Positions 33,586 through 52,180 of a DNA stretch of 64,000 nt are shown here, piece after piece. Numbering within the stretch: position 1 is the first letter of the stretch; the number at the start of each line of letters is the position of its first letter. Under the pieces are notes generated by a model. The model searched no databases. It was not told where the DNA came from and saw only the letters and a program-made list of their open reading frames with translations. The position numbers and the translations under genes were made by a program. Origin of the DNA: an uncultured Candidatus Actinomarina sp. (GTDB taxonomy: Bacteria; Actinomycetota; Acidimicrobiia; Actinomarinales; Actinomarinaceae). Location of the stretch: assembly GCA_902634185.1 (NCBI GenBank), contig CACPJC010000003.1:32369-96368 (forward strand), read 5' to 3'.

Positions 33586-34935
33586 TTATTTATTGGTTTT
33601 TGCGACATCCTTTAAGAATGCGTCATTGCTTTTGAGAGTTTTAAGCCTATCAATTAATAATTCTGTTGCTGCACCACCTTCAAGGCCAACAAGAACTCTT
33701 CTTAGAGTCCATAATGACTCCAGTTCTTTTGGAGAAACTAGTCGTTGTTCTTCACGAGTTCCAGATGGAGTAACATCTATCGCCGGGAATACTCTTTTAT
33801 CTGCAAGCTGTCTATCTAATCTAAGCTCCATGTTTCCAGTTCCTTTAAACTCTTCAAAGATAACTTCATCCATTTTTGAGCCCGTCTCAACAAGTGCAGT
33901 ACCAAGAATTGTTAAACTTCCTCCACCTTCTATGTTTCTAGCTGCACCAAAGAATTGTTTTGGAGGTGTTAAAGCAGTTGAATCAACACCACCTGATAAA
34001 ATTCTTCCACTAGCTGGAGTAGCTAAGTTGTGAGCTCTCGCAAGTCTTGTAATTGAATCCAATAAAATTACTACGTCCTTACCTTCTTCAACAAGTCTTT
34101 TTGCTCTTTCGATAGCTAATTTAGAAACTTGAGTGTGCTCATCTGGTGGTCTATCAAAGGTTGAAAATACAACTTCTCCGTCAACCGAACGTTGCATATC
34201 GGTAACCTCTTCTGGTCTTTCATCAACTAAGACAACCATTAAATAAACTTCTGGATTGTTAGCAGTAATAGAGTTTGCAATTTCTTTAAGAATTGTAGTT
34301 TTACCTGCTTTCGGTGGGGAAACAATCAATCCTCTCTGACCTTTTCCAATAGGTGCAATAAGGTCTACGATTCTTCCAACAAGTCGCTCTGGTTCACCAT
34401 CAATCTCAAGTTTTAGTCTCTCATCAGGAAAAAGAGGTGTCAGTTTATCAAAGTCTACTCTACGAGCCAAAAGTTCTGGATCAGCTCCATTTACAGTCTT
34501 AGGTTCAACTAATGCAGGATACTTTTCTTTTGCACGTGGTGCACGAATTGGTCCTGTTACGAGATCTCCTTTTCTCATTCTAAATTTTTTGATTGCTCCC
34601 GCTGGTACATATACATCCATCTCACTTGGTTTATAACCACTACATCTTAAAAATCCATAACCCTCTGGCAAGATATCAAGAATACCCTCTCTTGTTTCAC
34701 CCTCTTTAATTTGGCTATCACCAGAATTTACAACAGATGGCATATCTTTGTCTGAAGCTACAACTGCTACTTCTTCTTCTGCACCATCTGCAATATCACC
34801 AATTGCGTCACCTTGTTCTAATAAAAGATCTATTAACTTTGCCTTTTGAAGGCCTTTGTGTTCAAGACCTAAACCATCAGCTATTTCACGAAGATCTGCT
34901 ACTGGTTTTGATTGTAATTGTGACCTTGCGGACAT
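33586..34935 (-). CDS. rho: Transcription termination factor Rho
   Basis: 449 aa. Rho_N HeH, CSD-like EGYGFLR, Walker A PPKAGKT. Confidence 0.97.
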   Translation of the reverse strand: MSARSQLQSKPVADLREIADGLGLEHKGLQKAKLIDLLLEQGDAIGDIADGAEEEVAVVASDKDMPSVVNSGDSQIKEGETREGILDILPEGYGFLRCSGYKPSEMDVYVPAGAIKKFRMRKGDLVTGPIRAPRAKEKYPALVEPKTVNGADPELLARRVDFDKLTPLFPDERLKLEIDGEPERLVGRIVDLIAPIGKGQRGLIVSPPKAGKTTILKEIANSITANNPEVYLMVVLVDERPEEVTDMQRSVDGEVVFSTFDRPPDEHTQVSKLAIERAKRLVEEGKDVVILLDSITRLARAHNLATPASGRILSGGVDSTALTPPKQFFGAARNIEGGGSLTILGTALVETGSKMDEVIFEEFKGTGNMELRLDRQLADKRVFPAIDVTPSGTREEQRLVSPKELESLWTLRRVLVGLEGGAATELLIDRLKTLKSNDAFLKDVAKTNK

Positions 34936-35050
34936 ATTTCTCCTAATTTCAAAACATTCATGGTTTGGAATGGTTTGTGAATTGTGTTTGTCTGAAAGAC
35001 ATTCTTATTATATACACAGCAATTTTAAATTAACAACATTTAAATTTTTT

Positions 35051-35845
35051 TTAAGCTGAACAAATATTGATGTAATCGGTTAAATACTCTTGTTCACTTG
35101 AATCTAATTCACCTGCTGTTCTGTAGTGATTGTATGCACCACCGTAATAACGCACAAGTGCATCAACTAAATATTCTTCCCCTCCAAAAAAGTCTCGTGC
35201 ATCTTGACGATATAACGTTGTTGAATTTTTTGGACAGTTCCTAGTTAAATATGTAAATGCATGAAGTGATTCATGAAGTAAAACATCATAAGAAACTGCA
35301 GCTGAAAAAGCTCTATCCGATATCCAAATAGAAAGTTTCCATTCTGCATTTTTGGTTCCATCTGAGCTTGTTCCGCTTGGATCCCATACTCCATAAGGAC
35401 ACCTCCCAACAAGTGAAGCCCCATATTGATGACAACCATTAATAACACTTATATTGTTTGTTTCGATTATTTGTAACAGTAATGGAGGTAATTGTTTGAC
35501 TAGTTCACCCAAAGTAGTTTGATTTGTGCCTTCGAATCCTGCGTATTCTGCAAATGGACCTGTGTAAACCGTTGTGGTTGTGGTTGAAGTGGTTGTTGTT
35601 GAAGTTGTAGATGTTGTGGTTGAAGTGGTTGTTGTTGAAGGTGGAACAGTTGTTGTTGAAGGTGGAACAGTGGTTGTAGTTGAAGATGTAGTAGTCGTTG
35701 GCTCAAGAGTTGTTGTAGTAGTATCAATGACTTGAATTTCTTCTTGTTCAAGTACAATTGTCTCTTCTTCTTGATTAAAGTTTATTACAACTAAAGAAAC
35801 AATTAATAACAGAAAAATAAATGAGTTTATATATCTGTTGTTCAT
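35051..35845 (-). CDS. Secreted or anchored protein: signal anchor, Thr-rich linker, Cys-containing HExxH domain
   Basis: 264 aa. Thr/Ser/Pro linker at ~35557..35725. LLHESLHAF at 35261..35275. Its start overlaps the upstream stop (ATGA). Confidence 0.7.
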   Translation of the reverse strand: MNNRYINSFIFLLLIVSLVVINFNQEEETIVLEQEEIQVIDTTTTTLEPTTTTSSTTTTVPPSTTTVPPSTTTTSTTTSTTSTTTTSTTTTTVYTGPFAEYAGFEGTNQTTLGELVKQLPPLLLQIIETNNISVINGCHQYGASLVGRCPYGVWDPSGTSSDGTKNAEWKLSIWISDRAFSAAVSYDVLLHESLHAFTYLTRNCPKNSTTLYRQDARDFFGGEEYLVDALVRYYGGAYNHYRTAGELDSSEQEYLTDYINICSA

Positions 35846-37287
35846 CTTCTGGCCTTTACTTTTATAAATAAACCTAGAATCAAAATTGTTAAAATGTATC
35901 CAATTAGGCCAATTGCAAAGGTTAAAGAAAATGAACCCATACTTAATAAATCTTGTTGCATGTTGGCAAATTCACTATCTGGAGGAACAATAAGAATTCT
36001 TATAAACAACCACAAACCCAATATAAAACTTAAAAGTGGAAAGATTTTAAAAACACCTTGAGAGTCGGTAAGAGATTCAAATAACTCATTTCCACCACCC
36101 GGCAGTGACTTAAACAAAACTCCTTCTAAACACATCAAATAGCTAAGGGCTGCAGCTGCCGTCAGTACCGTTGAGTCTTTAATAAGAGGTATAGATGTTA
36201 GATAGAAGAAACCAAACCCTGCAAGACTCAAAGCAATTGTTGAGTAAAATTTTGGTGAAAGTTTTGCTATATTTCTTCTTCCAGTGATGTACGCAGATGC
36301 AAAAAATCCAAATATAAATCCAATTGGCATTTCAAAATAGATGAAAGCAAGAGTAGAAATCCCCGCAAAAAATATTGCTTGAGGAGCCCATTTAATTCTT
36401 ACTTTTTGCTTAAAAACTTTACTCTCAATTAATCCCTCTGTCCCCTCGTAAAACAAAGTAACAGCAATTAACCCAACGAGTGCAGCAATAAATATTGCTA
36501 AATTTTCAAGATCTAAAGTTAGATCAGCTCCTTCCTCAACAAAGCCTATTAAAAATGCAGTTGAAAAAAGAACGAAAAGAACTTTAACTAAAGTAATAAG
36601 CTTCTTTGAGCCACGAATGTTTCTATCTTTGGCAAACCATCGAATATTATTCGTTGAAATAATTTTGTTAAACCATTCTTGTAAGAGCAACACTACATAA
36701 AACAAAAAGATGATTCCCGTTGAAACAATTACAGCGATGCTGTTTTTTTCTTGATCTGTCAGATCAACATCCTCAAATAAGGGAATAGACGTAATCAACT
36801 CATTTGTTATTTCAATATTTAAAAAATCAGTTTCCTCGATGACGGGTGGTGGAAGAGTTGTTGTAGTTGTTGAAGTGGTAGTTGTTGTTGAAGTTGTTGT
36901 TGGTGGTGGAATTATTTTTAATAATTTTTGATTTATGTATTCCATCTCAACTATTTTTTTACATTCCTCTGCAGGACAATCAGGCCCAGTAACATTCTCA
37001 AATTCAGTAATAAAAACGCGTATTGTGACCCTTACATAATCTGGATAGCAACATAGCTCAAGTTCGCCATCTGGGCTTTCAAGTTGAATTGTTTCAATAT
37101 TGTTGTCGTGTGAAATTTGGAGGACGATGTCATCATAGTCCTCAAAATTTATAGACCATTCAACTAATATCTTTTCATTTTCTAATCGTTTTATATCAAG
37201 CTTTATATTTTCGGTATCTAAAGTTGGAGTAAAAAATGAACCATTGAAAAAGAGGAGGAATAATAAAAATATTAGACTTTTTTTCAT
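35842..37287 (-). CDS. Polytopic membrane protein with an N-terminal exo-domain and a Thr-rich linker
   Basis: 481 aa. Signal peptide, ~125-aa Cys-containing domain, PPPTTTSTTTTTSTTTTTLPPP (36844..36909), then ~9-10 TM helices. No family recognised. Confidence 0.7.
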   Translation of the reverse strand: MKKSLIFLLFLLFFNGSFFTPTLDTENIKLDIKRLENEKILVEWSINFEDYDDIVLQISHDNNIETIQLESPDGELELCCYPDYVRVTIRVFITEFENVTGPDCPAEECKKIVEMEYINQKLLKIIPPPTTTSTTTTTSTTTTTLPPPVIEETDFLNIEITNELITSIPLFEDVDLTDQEKNSIAVIVSTGIIFLFYVVLLLQEWFNKIISTNNIRWFAKDRNIRGSKKLITLVKVLFVLFSTAFLIGFVEEGADLTLDLENLAIFIAALVGLIAVTLFYEGTEGLIESKVFKQKVRIKWAPQAIFFAGISTLAFIYFEMPIGFIFGFFASAYITGRRNIAKLSPKFYSTIALSLAGFGFFYLTSIPLIKDSTVLTAAAALSYLMCLEGVLFKSLPGGGNELFESLTDSQGVFKIFPLLSFILGLWLFIRILIVPPDSEFANMQQDLLSMGSFSLTFAIGLIGYILTILILGLFIKVKARR

Positions 37288-37290
37288 TGA

Positions 37291-37920
37291 CTACTTTTGG
37301 ATTTTAGTTGCCTTTTCAAAAATTTCATTTACATTTTCTACATACCATTCATCTGTATATTTAGACCAGACGGGATAACTTGGATCATAACGTAGCCATA
37401 GAAATGTGGATCCATTGAATAATTGAAAAATATCATCAGCAAGTTCATCAGCAGAATCAGCATCATAATTTTTGCAGAGAGATTTGAGAACATCATAGGG
37501 TTCGCGCTGTATCCATTTTCCCGATGCTTGAATATCTCTAACTTCAAACCAAGCAAATCTAATTGCATTACCAAGTTCAACAACTTTATTTGCGATTGTG
37601 TCCAAAAACATGGTTATAGCGGCACCAGGCTCTGGGGAGGTTTGTAAAAATGCATTCAACTCATCAGCAACATCTTTAAATCCTAATTGAAATAGTGATC
37701 CATAAACATCTAATTTATTCTCAGGAAAATGATTGTAAGCAGTTGCAACAGACACTCCAGCATGCTTTGCAATTTGTGAGACAGTGACTTTTTCATGAGA
37801 AACGAGTGGATTATTAAATAGCTCGACTGCACTATTTATAAGTTTTTTATGCGCCTCATCATATGTTTTTTGTGCACGTAATGATCTTCCATCCTGTTTT
37901 TTTAATGGTTCAATGCTCAT
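37291..37920 (-). CDS. TetR-family transcriptional regulator
   Basis: 209 aa. HTH VTVSQIAKHAGVSVATAYNHF. Its ATG directly abuts the TAA of the giant ORF. Confidence 0.88.
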   Translation of the reverse strand: MSIEPLKKQDGRSLRAQKTYDEAHKKLINSAVELFNNPLVSHEKVTVSQIAKHAGVSVATAYNHFPENKLDVYGSLFQLGFKDVADELNAFLQTSPEPGAAITMFLDTIANKVVELGNAIRFAWFEVRDIQASGKWIQREPYDVLKSLCKNYDADSADELADDIFQLFNGSTFLWLRYDPSYPVWSKYTDEWYVENVNEIFEKATKIQK

Positions 37921-46976: not shown

Positions 46977-46986
46977 ACAAATTTTT

Positions 46987-48315
46987 TCAGGAAAACCTTG
47001 CTTTTATAGATTCAATGATTTGATCTTTTTGAGGCTCTAGAGTCTCAAAATCCTCATCCTGATCAATCTCAGAACCAGGAAAATCTTTAATAAGTGGAGA
47101 TATCACATTGCTGAACTTTTCAGGTGATGCAGTAGCTACAGCGACTGTTGGAACACTTGAGTTTATATCTATAGCCATTCTTAAAGAGGTGACTGTATGA
47201 GGATCAAAAACAATATTAAAAAGATCATTGAATGTTTTTATTTCCTCTTTTATCTTTTCATCATCAAAGGTCTGTGAGCTAAATATATGTTGTAATTTAT
47301 CTCTGCTACCTTCACTTAACATTCCTTTTTTATTTTCATTAAGATCTTGATAGAAAGATGATGCATCTGATTCAAAGTCATATATTAATCTCTCTAAACT
47401 AGATGGGATCTGAATATCCATACTTGGGGCAACACTGGGTTTTGTTGTTTGTGGTTCTAGGATTCCAGAATCAATAAAACGCTTCAAGACATCATTAACA
47501 TTTGTTGTACACATGATCTGATTTATTTTCAGTCCATGTGATCTACCAAACCATGCTGAGTAAGCATTACCAAAATTTCCAGACGGTATTGCAACATTTA
47601 TTGGTGAAGTAAACTGTTTGGTCAACCAGACATAATAAGTGACCTGTCCCATAACTCGAAGCCAGTTGATTGAGTTCAAAGAGATAATTCTTCTCTCAAA
47701 TGGATTGTCAGATAATATCTCTTTTGCAATTCTTTGACAGTCATCATATGACCCTTCAACTGCAATATTGAAAACATTATCTTTGATAACACTTGTCATT
47801 TGTTTTCTTTGATATTCACTAATTTTGTTTGCGGGATGAAGAACGACAATATCAATATTGTCTGAATCTTTTACAGCTTGGATAGCAGCACTCCCTGTAT
47901 CACCGCTGGTTGCTACAAGAACGAGCCCTCTCTCTCCTAATTCACTCAGTCTTTTACCAGCAATTGCTCCTAGAGGTTGTAGAGCATAATCTTTAAATGA
48001 TTTTGTAGGTCCATGAAAAAGCTCCATGACGACGGTTGTATCATTTAAATCTTTAAGTACTGGTTCTGGAGAGTTTTCAAATCCAGAATATAGTGATAAG
48101 CCATCAACATATTTAGCTGAGTTTTTATCTAGTGCAATAAAGATTGTTTTTACAAAATCCTCATAACTTAAGTCCTCTTCAGTTAAATGATTAAGGTTAT
48201 CAATTGTTAATGAATCAGGTAAATAAAGGCCTTTATCAGGTGCTAGCCCTGAAAGAATGACATCTTCAAAAGAGATGGTCTCTTTATGTCCCCTGGTTGA
48301 TTGATACTGTACCAC
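46987..48315 (-). CDS. thrC: Threonine synthase
   Basis: 442 aa. PLP-Lys motif HGPTKSFKDYALQ. Confidence 0.95.
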   Translation of the reverse strand: MVQYQSTRGHKETISFEDVILSGLAPDKGLYLPDSLTIDNLNHLTEEDLSYEDFVKTIFIALDKNSAKYVDGLSLYSGFENSPEPVLKDLNDTTVVMELFHGPTKSFKDYALQPLGAIAGKRLSELGERGLVLVATSGDTGSAAIQAVKDSDNIDIVVLHPANKISEYQRKQMTSVIKDNVFNIAVEGSYDDCQRIAKEILSDNPFERRIISLNSINWLRVMGQVTYYVWLTKQFTSPINVAIPSGNFGNAYSAWFGRSHGLKINQIMCTTNVNDVLKRFIDSGILEPQTTKPSVAPSMDIQIPSSLERLIYDFESDASSFYQDLNENKKGMLSEGSRDKLQHIFSSQTFDDEKIKEEIKTFNDLFNIVFDPHTVTSLRMAIDINSSVPTVAVATASPEKFSNVISPLIKDFPGSEIDQDEDFETLEPQKDQIIESIKARFS

Positions 48316-49615: not shown

Positions 49616-52180
49616 TTATTCATCACCATCAGCGATTCCATCTGTGTCAGCATCTGAGCTTGCATTTGGGTCTAAAGGAAATGCATCTAAAGAGTCTAAT
49701 ACCCCATCACCATCATCATCTGTGTCTGATGAATTATCGATACCGTCTCCATCTGTATCAACAGCAGTTAGTTTCCATCTTCTCATAAATTCATCTTCAA
49801 ACATTACTATTCCTACTTCAGGGTTCACCCAAAAATTTAGTATCTGTAAAGACCGGTGAAATGAACTTGATGCACCAATACTAACTTGTGAATGAGTAAT
49901 TTTGTATGCATCGTATGCACCGTGAGGTGTAACAACTAACTCTTGATTTACATAATTTGTAAAATTCCAAGTATCGTAATAAGTAGTGCCAAAAGTGGAT
50001 GTATTTTCATATCTTGAAGAACAATCTGATTCATTATATTCACCTGTCTTCATGTAATGGTCAATGAATAGACAAGGATTTTGAAATTCTCTTTCAATAG
50101 AGCCGTCACTTGGTGTTGAACCGGCAAATATCTTTTCCCAACCAACAGTCTTTATAAAGTAATTACCATTGTTTATATAAAATAATATTCCAAATTTATG
50201 GTTAACATCGCCTGTATTAAATGGATTCACATAATTCATGTCACAATTTTGTGTATCACACCAGTAAAAAGTTTCGTATGTAGTTCCACCATCCTCAATA
50301 TCTGAGCCTTTTTCGACATACATTGTTTTTGTTGCAGAAGTAGTTTCAGAAATTGATTCTGTAAAGCTATATGACGATGAACCACCATCAATTAATGGAA
50401 AATATGCTTTTGATTTTATTGAATAACTTCCGATGTCAACGCCATAATTTGTAGATGGCCCAAATCTGTCATATTCATGTGCATATTCTTGCATTACTCT
50501 CGAAGCATCAGATTGATCATTTACTCCAGCACTTTGTGTGCCTTGTGTTCCATCATTTTGATAGTGGAAAGGAATGCCAAGATCATTTACTTCTGGAAAT
50601 CCAGCACATGTTAAATCTGGATTTGAATAAATTCCACAAAAAGCCATTCCATACCCTACGAGAGTTGAGAAAGGTTGGTCGCCTGTCTGATTATAAGCAT
50701 GTGCATAATCGGTAATTCCATCTCCTGTTGATCCAGGATTTGAACTTTGCTCTCTTGAATGTGCTATCCCCAAAGCATGTCCTAACTCATGTGGAAAGAG
50801 CTTGTTATTATATCTGTAATCCAAGCTTGTAACTTTGAAAACATTTCTCCTGTCTTTTGTTGTATCTCTATATAAATATGAAGAACTTCCCTCTCCAGGA
50901 AGGAGTGCACCTACAATATCAGCACCTTTTTTAACTTTAGTTTTGTGGACTTCTTGATCATATTGTAAAAAGTTTAAAATATTGCTACTTACGTCTGAGT
51001 AAGTCACATTCCAAGAATGGATATCCAAAACATTCATTTCCAAGTTAGTAATCTGACTATTCGCAAAAATCTCATTTTGATTTGTCTCTAACTGACCCTG
51101 AGCAAAAGAAAGCAATTCACTGGTAGTATCGTAATCGCTTGGTGCAGATCCAATTGTGTCATTGTGGTAAACAAGTAAAAGATCTATGGAAAATTTTTCT
51201 GATATATCTGTCACGTTAACTGTAAAATTTTTGCAAGATATTCCCAAACTGTCAGTCACATTTGCAGTTGCTGAATAACTTGTCTTTTGCTCATAGTCAG
51301 CATTTGTATTTAAAGTTATTACTCCGTTTGAATCAACCGACATAAGTCTTGAATCACTTCCAGTAATTGAGTAAGACAATGTGCCTGATCCCGTTGCTGA
51401 AATGGTATCAATAGATTTTTGATTTTCATTTATTGTTATTGGAGTAGTTAAATTAGTAATTGTTGGACCATTGCTACAGCTATCCTCAGAAGAATTTCCT
51501 GATCCAGTTCCACCAGTTCCACCAGTTCCAGGTGTTATTCCTGGGATGGGTTTTTCTATAAAATCAAAACCACTATTTTTTAATTGTTTATGTTCATCGC
51601 AGTCTCTATATGTAGTCCATTCACCTGCTGCATTCCATAAAGTTCCAACTTCTCCATGCCACATCTTTCCACCATCATCACAATCAATTTTCTCACTTAC
51701 TGTTTCCGTGATAATTTCATCAACCTCTGTGATAACTTCATCGACCTCTAAGAGATTTTGTTTTATTGGTCTATTTTCAAAAAAAGTACATTCTTTGTAA
51801 GCTAAATAGTCACCGCAATCTATAAATATAGCTTTGACCTCCATCTCACAATTGTTATAAGTTGTCATAGCTTTATGTGTTGAAGGTCCAATAATGCCAT
51901 CAACTCTAATCCCAATAAATCTTTGAAAATTTTTGATTGCTAGCCTAAGACTTTTTGTCATATAAGCTTCAATTTTTCCAGTGAAAAAACCTTCTTCATT
52001 CAGAAAATCATATAAATTACTAACTTCAAGAAAATTTACGTTACCGTAATTATTTTCAACACATTCCTGAGTAGTTTCATTAAAGACTGATTCAGTTACT
52101 TCGATTTGGGTTGGAAACATTAGAGTTGTAAAAATAATCAAAAATACAAAAATAAAACAAGTAAAAATTCTCCAACCCAT
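49616..52180 (-). CDS. Multidomain secreted metzincin: signal anchor, PG-binding-like, cadherin-like, HExxHxxGxxH protease, TSP3-like Ca-binding tail
   Basis: 854 aa. IKNFQRFIGIRVDGIIGPSTHKAM. PITINENQKSIDTISATGSGTLSYSITG...VNVTD. HELGHALGIAH (50759..50791). DTDGDGIDNSSDTDDDGDGVLD...DADTDGIADGDE. Confidence 0.8.
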   Translation of the reverse strand: MGWRIFTCFIFVFLIIFTTLMFPTQIEVTESVFNETTQECVENNYGNVNFLEVSNLYDFLNEEGFFTGKIEAYMTKSLRLAIKNFQRFIGIRVDGIIGPSTHKAMTTYNNCEMEVKAIFIDCGDYLAYKECTFFENRPIKQNLLEVDEVITEVDEIITETVSEKIDCDDGGKMWHGEVGTLWNAAGEWTTYRDCDEHKQLKNSGFDFIEKPIPGITPGTGGTGGTGSGNSSEDSCSNGPTITNLTTPITINENQKSIDTISATGSGTLSYSITGSDSRLMSVDSNGVITLNTNADYEQKTSYSATANVTDSLGISCKNFTVNVTDISEKFSIDLLLVYHNDTIGSAPSDYDTTSELLSFAQGQLETNQNEIFANSQITNLEMNVLDIHSWNVTYSDVSSNILNFLQYDQEVHKTKVKKGADIVGALLPGEGSSSYLYRDTTKDRRNVFKVTSLDYRYNNKLFPHELGHALGIAHSREQSSNPGSTGDGITDYAHAYNQTGDQPFSTLVGYGMAFCGIYSNPDLTCAGFPEVNDLGIPFHYQNDGTQGTQSAGVNDQSDASRVMQEYAHEYDRFGPSTNYGVDIGSYSIKSKAYFPLIDGGSSSYSFTESISETTSATKTMYVEKGSDIEDGGTTYETFYWCDTQNCDMNYVNPFNTGDVNHKFGILFYINNGNYFIKTVGWEKIFAGSTPSDGSIEREFQNPCLFIDHYMKTGEYNESDCSSRYENTSTFGTTYYDTWNFTNYVNQELVVTPHGAYDAYKITHSQVSIGASSSFHRSLQILNFWVNPEVGIVMFEDEFMRRWKLTAVDTDGDGIDNSSDTDDDGDGVLDSLDAFPLDPNASSDADTDGIADGDE

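What the first reader, a model, noticed from the sequence alone, without database searches (positions are those of the whole stretch)
35051..37920. TetR regulator, polytopic membrane protein and secreted HExxH protein translationally coupled to the adhesin/sortase ORF
Seen: the giant ORF's TAA (37923..37921) abuts the TetR ATG (37920). The TetR stop is 3 nt from the next ATG (37287). The last two genes overlap by ATGA (35842..35845). The membrane protein has a signal peptide, a ~125-aa Cys-containing exo-domain, a PPPT(n)LPPP linker and ~9-10 TM helices, and I recognise no family. The last gene has a signal anchor, a 55-aa Thr/Ser/Pro linker and a Cys-containing domain with LLHESLHAF. A cytoplasmic small-molecule-responsive regulator embedded in a cell-surface operon is unusual. 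Inference: the four genes form one functional module. The TetR may give ligand-dependent autoregulation, and the membrane and HExxH proteins may act in export, processing or modification of the giant protein.
Basis: partly seen in the sequence, partly recalled or inferred. Interest (0 to 1): 0.6.

Follow-up and report, generated by a model that had tools for sequence, protein, structure and literature searches.

The report
TetR-gated surface-protein operon in Actinomarina
Three small genes behind a giant wall-anchored protein in the abundant marine bacterium Candidatus Actinomarina are a repressor with a matching DNA binding site at the operon's promoter, an unstudied type of membrane protein, and a new membrane-tethered zinc protease, so the surface structure is probably switched on and off as one unit.

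Summary
The window is Candidatus Actinomarina chromosome, and the four genes sit between thrC and rho. Tight junctions prove little here: 24 of 43 same-strand junctions in the window are 4 nt or less.

The best new evidence concerns the TetR. A perfect palindrome, TTAGAA-N4-TTCTAA (46957-46972), fills the spacer of a promoter-like site upstream of the giant ORF. It occurs once in the window. In 791 kb of related loci it occurs nine times, always at this junction. All four TetR-less loci that include this junction lack both the palindrome and the promoter spacer. The TetR recognition helix is invariant down to 33% overall identity.

Sortase and membrane protein are always adjacent apart from the TetR. 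The TetR is missing in 26 of 83 loci and the zincin in 2 of 55. Autoregulation is well supported. Roles of the membrane protein and zincin in processing the giant protein remain inferred. I rate it a new variant of a known kind, of moderate interest.

The parts
46949..46976 (-). Promoter-like site upstream of the giant ORF: -35 TTGATT, 16-nt spacer, -10 TAAAAT, ending 17 nt before the GTG start.
   Evidence: 9 of 12 consensus match; sequence. The -10 and the TT of the -35 are conserved across divergent loci. It is a consensus match only; function was not tested.
46957..46972 (.). Candidate TetR operator: the perfect 6-4-6 palindrome TTAGAA-ACTT-TTCTAA, filling the promoter spacer.
   Evidence: It is the only exact match in the 64-kb window. 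There are nine exact matches in 791 kb of related loci, all at the thrC-giant junction, against 0.33 expected. The arms are invariant while the N4 and flanks vary. L018 has one mismatch. It is absent from the four TetR-less loci that hold the junction.
37921..46932 (-). Giant 3003-aa surface protein fused to its own class E sortase; first gene of the unit.
   Evidence: ORF; Sortase domain E 1.6e-29; class E sortase model E 7e-30, 104 bits, below its 160-bit cutoff. The same fusion is seen in all lineages examined.
39007..39105 (-). Internal sorting signal of the giant protein: LAATG (aa 2610-2614), a hydrophobic segment, then RKRK.
   Evidence: It is conserved as LAATG, LADTG, MADTG or LANTG in other lineages. 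There is a weak hit to the LAXTG small-protein model NF058583.
37924..38580 (-). Class E sortase domain (aa 2785-3003), preceded by its own TM segment.
37291..37920 (-). TetR-family regulator, 209 aa. The HTH covers aa 43-69 (window 37714-37794).
   Evidence: PF00440 E 9.2e-7, above cutoff. The best PDB sequence hit is a TetR-family regulator, 2qib. The recognition-helix block IAKxAxxSxATAYNHFPxN is invariant in nine orthologues down to 33% identity.
35842..37287 (-). 481-aa membrane protein. It comprises a signal peptide, an FN3-like ectodomain (aa 24-125, window 36913-37218), a Thr/Pro linker, a conserved juxtamembrane motif ITNELITSIPLF, and a nine-TM domain (aa 159-481, window 35845-36813) of the FGLLP-motif type.
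   Evidence: NF041501 E 4e-13 but 49 bits against a cutoff of 150. hhalign against an alignment of FGLLP members gives probability 98.3%, E 1.5e-14, over 304 columns. Ectodomain pLDDT is about 80, with FN3 matches. Topology comes from hydropathy and charge.
36055..36117 (-). Counterpart of the FGLLP...LDGG motif: LFKSLPGGGNELFESLTDSQG (aa 391-411), with invariant P396 and D408.
35051..35845 (-). 264-aa membrane-tethered zincin. It comprises an N-terminal hydrophobic anchor (aa 5-23), a Thr/Ser/Pro stalk, and a catalytic domain (aa 93-264, window 35054-35569).
35261..35275 (-). HESLH zinc-binding motif (H191, E192, H195).
   Evidence: It is invariant in 20 homologues, together with E223, E224, D228, the YNHYR block and four Cys: C138, C149, C204, C262.

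Best explanation
The three genes are the tail of a single cell-surface operon of Candidatus Actinomarina, inserted between thrC and rho.

Proposed mechanism:
1. A sigma-70-like promoter upstream of the giant ORF carries a 16-bp palindrome in its spacer.
2. The operon-encoded TetR dimer binds this palindrome and blocks transcription of the whole unit, including its own gene.
3. An unknown small ligand releases the repressor.
4. Derepression yields the giant LAxTG protein with its fused class E sortase, together with two extracytoplasmic accessory proteins.

The first accessory protein is a nine-TM protein of the FGLLP-motif type that displays an FN3-like domain on a short stalk. The second is a zinc endopeptidase held on a Thr-rich stalk outside the membrane.

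The zincin most likely trims or sheds the giant protein, or the ectodomain of its membrane-protein neighbour, near the wall. The membrane protein most likely acts as a membrane partner of the sortase step.

Shown here: gene order and its conservation, the operator-like site and its co-variation with the TetR gene, the folds, and the family relations.

Inferred: repression, the ligand, co-transcription, protease activity and its substrate, and any role of the membrane protein.
For: Operator:
- The perfect palindrome lies at 46957-46972, inside the -35/-10 spacer.
- It is unique in the window.
- It is found nine times in 791 kb of related loci, always at this junction, against 0.33 expected.
- The arms are conserved while the spacer and flanks drift.
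- All 11 TetR-bearing junctions have it. Ten are perfect; L018 has one mismatch.
- The four TetR-less junctions (L026, L027, L034, L042) have only 8-25 nt between thrC and the giant start, and no palindrome.
- The TetR recognition helix is invariant although overall identity falls to 33%.

Unit:
- Adjacency of sortase, membrane protein and zincin persists across 102 loci, with -11 to +7 nt junctions in nearly all.
- All three exported proteins carry Thr/Pro stalks, and the membrane protein and zincin each have four invariant cysteines.
- The module proteins diverge to 32-60% identity where rho stays at 85-99%.

Zincin:
- It has a confident model, a zincin fold and invariant HExxH plus EE.
- The precedent is PPEP-1 and PPEP-2, secreted zincins that cleave wall-anchored adhesins encoded by the adjacent gene (PMC8610288).
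Against: - Nothing here shows transcription, DNA binding or proteolysis.
- Synteny is generally well preserved in this order (PMC7771536), and short junctions are the genomic norm. Adjacency within one genus is therefore weak evidence of shared function.
- The TetR-less loci form one or two related clades, so the 11-versus-4 co-variation represents few independent events.
- The TetR is dispensable (26 of 83 loci), as is the zincin (L018, L074).
- FGLLP-family members in other organisms sit in unrelated contexts with no sortase, TetR or zincin nearby.
- Giants in L008, L022 and L027 contain no Pro-Pro although a zincin is present, so a PPEP-type specificity does not hold.
- The TM domain could not be modelled (pLDDT 47).
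Confidence: 0.55

Rival explanations
1. The genes are unrelated neighbours packed together by genome streamlining. The TetR controls only itself or a distant target. The membrane protein and zincin have general envelope roles unconnected with the giant protein.
For: Tight junctions are the norm (24 of 43 at 4 nt or less). Synteny is preserved across the order. TetR and zincin can each be lost without loss of the rest. FGLLP relatives elsewhere have no sortase link.
Against: The operator-like palindrome sits at the promoter of the giant gene and disappears with the TetR gene. The block is an insertion of lineage-specific, fast-evolving exported proteins inside a deeply conserved housekeeping array. 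The membrane and zincin families are essentially confined to this locus: 70 representatives in 1.84 billion proteins, and 183 word-search hits.
Confidence: 0.15
2. TetR and the membrane protein form a classical regulator-transporter pair. The polytopic protein would be an efflux or uptake system for the TetR ligand, merely embedded in the surface operon.
For: TetR genes typically lie next to the membrane transporters they control (general knowledge). TetR and the membrane gene stay adjacent even where their order is reversed (L018). The best NCBIfam hits of the TetR are efflux repressors such as MtrR and AcrR, at weak scores. Some lineages add an SBF transporter gene next door.
Against: The membrane gene persists without the TetR in 26 loci. 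There is no palindrome or spacer in front of the membrane gene (gap 0-3 nt). There is no match to any transporter family in Pfam or NCBIfam. The FGLLP family carries variable extracellular domains such as PPC, LRR and FN3, which is unusual for transporters.
Confidence: 0.12
3. The zincin and the membrane protein work on the cell wall or on the Thr-rich stalks in general, for example in peptidoglycan or glycan remodelling or quality control of exported proteins. They would not act specifically on the giant protein.
Against: Gene linkage with the sortase-substrate fusion is consistent across all lineages. The zincin lacks any wall-binding domain.
Confidence: 0.18

Closest known systems
TetR-family autorepressors (TetR, QacR, AcrR type)
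   Same: About 200 aa with an N-terminal HTH that passes the Pfam cutoff. There is a short palindromic site overlapping the promoter of the operon that contains the regulator's own gene.
   Different: The regulated operon encodes a sortase-anchored giant surface protein rather than an efflux pump or catabolic enzymes. The C-terminal domain matches no known ligand-binding subfamily, and the ligand is unknown.
NCBIfam NF041501, FGLLP motif-containing membrane protein (uncharacterised)
   Same: Homologous over the whole TM domain, including the juxtamembrane S(I/V)PL motif, WFN, Y-x-G, AP-x-AI, GF-x-G, the F-x-x-L-P motif and the following Asp. It shares the architecture of a variable ectodomain ahead of the TM domain.
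   Different: It scores 49 bits against a 150-bit cutoff. The motif is FKSLP, with a 7-residue insert before the Asp. It is linked to a sortase, which the sampled FGLLP members are not.
Pro-Pro endopeptidases PPEP-1 and PPEP-2 (MEROPS M34)
   Different: There is no sequence match to the ATLF/M34 family. The candidate third ligand lies 28 residues after HExxH. It is membrane-tethered by an N-terminal anchor and stalk. Pro-Pro sites are absent from several giants. [quoted passage not shown]
SafA, the small membrane protein encoded immediately downstream of the actinobacterial housekeeping sortase (PMC9282373)
   Same: A membrane protein gene directly follows a class E sortase in an actinobacterium. 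In TetR-less lineages the gap is 3-7 nt in 25 of 26 loci.
   Different: SafA is 52 aa with one TM and an FPW motif. This protein is 481 aa with nine TM segments and an ectodomain, and it has no FPW.
Sortase or pilus islands with an embedded transcription factor (for example rlrA-type islets of streptococci; from memory)
   Same: A local regulator, sortase, substrate and accessory genes lie in one locus.
   Different: The regulator is TetR-type, the sortase is fused to its substrate, the accessory proteins are of new families, and the locus sits in a streamlined free-living marine bacterium.

Membership tests
TetR family (Pfam PF00440) | N-terminal TetR-type HTH scoring above the family cutoff | tested here: met
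   E 9.2e-7, 29 bits against a cutoff of 24, aa 43-69. PDB hit 2qib, a TetR-family regulator.
TetR family (Pfam PF00440) | Palindromic operator near a regulated promoter | tested here: met
   A candidate 6-4-6 palindrome lies in the promoter spacer and co-varies with presence of the TetR gene. Binding itself was not tested.
TetR family (Pfam PF00440) | C-terminal ligand-binding domain and an inducing ligand | not testable with these tools
   No TetR_C subfamily hit. Conserved Trp-rich positions W136, W175, W185 and W192 hint at a pocket.
NCBIfam NF041501 FGLLP motif-containing membrane protein | Score at or above the curated cutoff of 150 bits | tested here: not met
   49 bits, E 4e-13, covering aa 189-338 only. 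A true member, P0309, scores 207 bits.
NCBIfam NF041501 FGLLP motif-containing membrane protein | Homology over the full TM domain | tested here: met
   hhalign probability 98.3%, E 1.5e-14, 304 columns, query aa 159-481.
NCBIfam NF041501 FGLLP motif-containing membrane protein | FGLLP motif followed by LDGG | tested here: inconclusive
   FKSLP aligns with FGLxP, and D408 aligns with the invariant Asp after a 7-residue insert. The Gly pair is replaced by S-x-G.
Zincin / gluzincin metallopeptidases | HExxH on the active-site helix | tested here: met
   H191, E192 and H195 are invariant in 20 sequences. The motif lies in a helix of the trimmed catalytic-domain model (model residues 93-108; motif at model residues 99-103).
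Zincin / gluzincin metallopeptidases | Third zinc ligand (Glu) on a following helix | tested here: inconclusive
   Invariant E223 and E224 lie at the start of a downstream helix (model residues 131-141). The geometry could not be measured.
Zincin / gluzincin metallopeptidases | Zincin fold | tested here: met
MEROPS M34 / Pro-Pro endopeptidases | Sequence membership (ATLF domain) | tested here: not met
   No Pfam hit at E up to 1. No PDB sequence hit with the family profile.
MEROPS M34 / Pro-Pro endopeptidases | Pro-Pro cleavage sites in the adjacent surface protein | tested here: not met
   The window giant has TLPGPP(T/I)INPS twice. The giants of L008, L022 and L027 have no PP although the zincin is present.
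SafA (sortase-associated factor) | Small single-TM protein of about 52 aa with an FPW motif | tested here: not met
   This protein is 481 aa with nine TM segments and no FPW. The SafA definition is from PMC9282373.
Site-2 protease / M50 | HExxH within a TM helix plus an NxxPxxxLDG motif | tested here: not met
   Only the second motif has a look-alike. No His or Glu is invariant in the FGLLP alignment, and no M50 Pfam hit occurs in 15 members or in the window protein.

The most novel reading that the evidence does not exclude
The FGLLP-type membrane protein and the stalk-tethered zincin form a previously unknown sortase-associated machinery. The membrane protein would dock the substrate-sortase fusion. 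The zincin would release or renew the giant surface protein. The TetR would make the whole surface coat respond to a dissolved small molecule. This would give one of the ocean's most abundant bacteria a ligand-switched surface, for example to evade phage or grazers, or to attach to particles.
Probability: 0.2. Interest if true: 0.7.

Novelty: new variant of a known kind. Interest (0 to 1): 0.45.

Why it matters
Candidatus Actinomarina is among the most abundant marine photoheterotrophs, is uncultured, and has a genome of about 1.1 Mb with very few regulators. A dedicated repressor kept for a 12-kb surface operon suggests that display of this giant protein is costly or risky and is controlled.

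The predicted operator gives a directly testable handle through EMSA, reporter assays and metatranscriptomes. The natural TetR-less lineages provide a built-in comparison.

The locus also gives a first genomic context for a branch of the uncharacterised FGLLP-motif membrane family, and it defines a new minimal extracellular zincin family.

Tried and rejected
- **Site-2-protease idea.** The FKSLP..D motif resembles the S2P NxxPxxxLDG motif. I rejected it because the family has no invariant His or Glu and no M50 hit.
- **NaK channel hit.** The membrane-protein profile hit NaK at E 0.006. The match rests on FYEGxEGL against FYSTVEGL, with no selectivity filter, so I rejected it.
- **PPEP-like Pro-Pro specificity.** Not supported.
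- **Structure of the TM domain.** AF2 gave pLDDT 47. Only the ectodomain was usable, so no fold search of the TM part could be trusted.
- **afdb50 fold library.** Not available.
- **Ectodomain against giant repeats.** No similarity between the membrane-protein ectodomain and the repeats of the giant protein.
- **PHROGs and PADLOC.** Nothing for the membrane protein or the zincin; the TetR gave only weak HTH-type hits. There is no sign of phage origin or a defence system.
- **Contexts of FGLLP members in other organisms.** No recurring partner was found.
- **Terminator and promoter scans inside the unit.** Counts did not exceed shuffled controls, so they are uninformative.
- **Literature.** Two Actinomarina genome papers mention no sortase, TetR or giant protein, and no paper was found that describes an FGLLP-motif family.
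Full report
**Observation.**
- The 3003-aa ORF (37921-46932, minus strand) ends in TAA at 37923-37921. This abuts the ATG of a 209-aa ORF (37291-37920).
- The TAG of that ORF lies 3 nt before the ATG of a 481-aa ORF (35842-37287).
- The 481-aa ORF overlaps the 264-aa ORF (35051-35845) by ATGA.

The tight junctions are real but not exceptional. Of 43 same-strand gene junctions in the window, 24 are 4 nt or less, with a median of 3 nt. This fits the streamlined genome described for this order (PMC7771536).

**Where this is.** Flanking genes are hom and thrC upstream. Downstream are rho, rpmE, DUF1385, prfA, prmC, sua5, glyA and atp. From memory, this is the conserved actinobacterial array in which Mycobacterium tuberculosis has thrB between thrC and rho.

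A genome scan with the 481-aa protein returned 21 loci. All are from Candidatus Actinomarina or OCS155 single-cell and metagenome-assembled genomes. The module is therefore a lineage-specific block inside a housekeeping array.

**The parts: TetR.** The 209-aa protein passes the Pfam TetR_N cutoff. Its only PDB sequence hit is a TetR-family regulator.

**The parts: membrane protein.** The 481-aa protein has no Pfam hit, but it matches NCBIfam NF041501 (FGLLP motif-containing membrane protein). That match is E 4e-13 at only 49 bits against a 150-bit cutoff.

An exhaustive profile search of 1.84 billion representative proteins gave only 70 hits.
- One hit, P0309, is a true NF041501 member at 207 bits.
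- Others are relatives with the same TM domain behind other ectodomains, such as P0244 (1226 aa, with an FN3 domain).

Profile-profile comparison of the Actinomarina alignment with 15 FGLLP members gives 98.3% probability and E 1.5e-14 over 304 columns. This covers the juxtamembrane motif and the whole TM domain. LEGVLFKSLP aligns with LEGLLFGLxP, and D408 aligns with the invariant Asp of LDGG.

Hydropathy and charge suggest a cleaved signal peptide, an outside ectodomain, nine TM segments and a cytoplasmic C-terminus. AF2 modelled only the ectodomain with confidence (pLDDT about 80), as an FN3-like sandwich. The TM part was not modelled (mean pLDDT 47).

**The parts: zincin.** The 264-aa protein has no family in Pfam, NCBIfam, PHROGs or PADLOC. 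A word-indexed search found 183 homologues, all of the same architecture.

The following are invariant in 20 sequences:
- H191, E192 and H195
- E223, E224 and D228
- a YNHYR block
- four cysteines

It is therefore a new, small, disulfide-bonded zincin. It is held outside the membrane by an N-terminal anchor and a Thr-rich stalk.

**Co-occurrence.** I fetched 102 related loci and mapped the window proteins onto them.
- On the upstream side, 57 loci read sortase-TetR-membrane and 26 read sortase-membrane directly.
- On the downstream side, 53 loci read membrane-zincin before rho and 2 lack the zincin (L018, L074).
- L018 has the order membrane-TetR.
- Junctions are 0-3 nt (sortase-TetR and TetR-membrane), 3-7 nt (sortase-membrane) and -4 to -11 nt (membrane-zincin) in nearly all cases.

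The constant core is the sortase end of the giant gene plus the membrane protein. The TetR and the zincin are frequent but dispensable.

Module proteins diverge to 32-60% identity where rho stays at 85-99%, as expected for exposed proteins. These loci are not independent samples, and the metagenome scan was seeded with a TetR-less type.

**The TetR site.** The 54-nt spacer upstream of the giant ORF holds a promoter-like TTGATT-16-TAAAAT. Within its spacer lies the perfect palindrome TTAGAA-ACTT-TTCTAA at 46957-46972.
- It is the only exact match in the window.
- In 791 kb of related loci the pattern occurs nine times, each time at the thrC-giant junction, against 0.33 expected.
- L018 has one mismatch.
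- The arms and the -10 are invariant, while the 4-nt centre (ACTT, TCTT, AACT, TAGA, ACAT) and the flanks vary.

Four TetR-less loci hold this junction (L026, L027, L034, L042). In all four the giant gene starts 8-25 nt after thrC, with no spacer and no palindrome.

The TetR recognition-helix block is invariant in nine orthologues whose overall identity falls to 33%.

Together these results make autorepression of the whole unit the best-supported step. It is still an inference, because binding was not tested and the TetR-less loci represent few independent losses or gains.

**What the accessory proteins do.** This remains inferred. The giant protein carries an internal sorting signal (LAATG, a TM segment, then RKRK). 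This is followed by a charged cytoplasmic linker, a second TM segment and the sortase domain, and the layout is kept in all lineages. The sortase and its substrate are thus made in equal amounts at the membrane.

[quoted passage not shown] It shares none of SafA's defining features.

[quoted passage not shown] A Pro-Pro specificity is not supported, because three zincin-bearing loci have giants without any PP.

FGLLP members in other organisms have no sortase, TetR or zincin nearby. The family as a whole is therefore not sortase-dedicated.

**Comparison and novelty.** Each component belongs to, or resembles, a known class: the TetR family, the zincin fold, and an uncharacterised NCBIfam family. 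Regulator-bearing sortase loci are known in Firmicutes (from memory).

New here are three things:
- a TetR with a predicted operator controlling a sortase-substrate fusion
- a divergent FGLLP-type protein consistently tied to a sortase
- a new tethered zincin family

Two Actinomarina genome papers mention none of this.

**Verdict.** I rate it a new variant of a known kind, with interest 0.45.

Noticed in passing
window 37921-46932 (-); sorting signal 39007-39105; sortase domain 37924-38580: The giant protein contains its own internal LAxTG sorting signal, followed by a TM segment, a 145-aa charged cytoplasmic linker, a second TM segment and a class E sortase domain. Substrate and sortase are therefore one polypeptide. 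The layout is kept in all lineages, with LAATG, LADTG, MADTG or LANTG.
   Followed up: partly
window 45733-46932 (-) and the giant genes of L002-L042: The N-terminal 400 aa of the giant protein are hypervariable (29-72% identity) even between genomes whose rho and sortase are 95-99% identical. Total length ranges from about 1170 to 3003 aa.
   Followed up: partly
L026, L027, L034, L042 (thrC-giant junction): In TetR-less lineages the giant gene starts 8-25 nt after the thrC stop, with no promoter spacer. It is presumably transcribed with hom-thrC. These giants are the shortest, at about 1170-1700 aa.
   Followed up: partly
window 33586-48315: The module occupies the place between thrC and rho where Mycobacterium tuberculosis has thrB (from memory). 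No thrB-like gene lies between them here, and I did not look for thrB elsewhere.
   Followed up: no
L022 12289-13131; also L012, L013, L020; a same-sized 280-aa ORF in L018: Some lineages carry an extra gene between the module and rho. In L022 it is a 280-aa SBF-family (bile acid/sodium symporter-like) gene. L018 has an unannotated ORF of the same size in that position, and in L012, L013 and L020 I infer the gene only from a gap of about 1 kb.
   Followed up: no
window 49616-52180 (-): An 854-aa protein with a peptidoglycan-binding domain and a reprolysin-like zinc metalloprotease domain lies two genes upstream of the module.
   Followed up: no
window 36739-36813 (-), membrane protein aa 159-183: The extracellular juxtamembrane segment EITNELITSIPLFxDxDLTDQEKN is the most conserved exposed stretch of the membrane protein. 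It aligns with the SVPLPxQVSTDP segment of FGLLP-family proteins. It could be a recognition or cleavage site.
   Followed up: no
window 46932-46949 (-): Only 17 nt separate the -10 hexamer from the GTG start of the giant ORF, so the transcript would have a very short leader or none. The block GTTGTAGAAG just before the start is conserved.
   Followed up: no
L103 1-8997: One FGLLP-family gene from an unrelated metagenome lies about 5 kb from DUF1385 and rpmE, the same genes that flank the Actinomarina module. This is probably coincidence.
   Followed up: no
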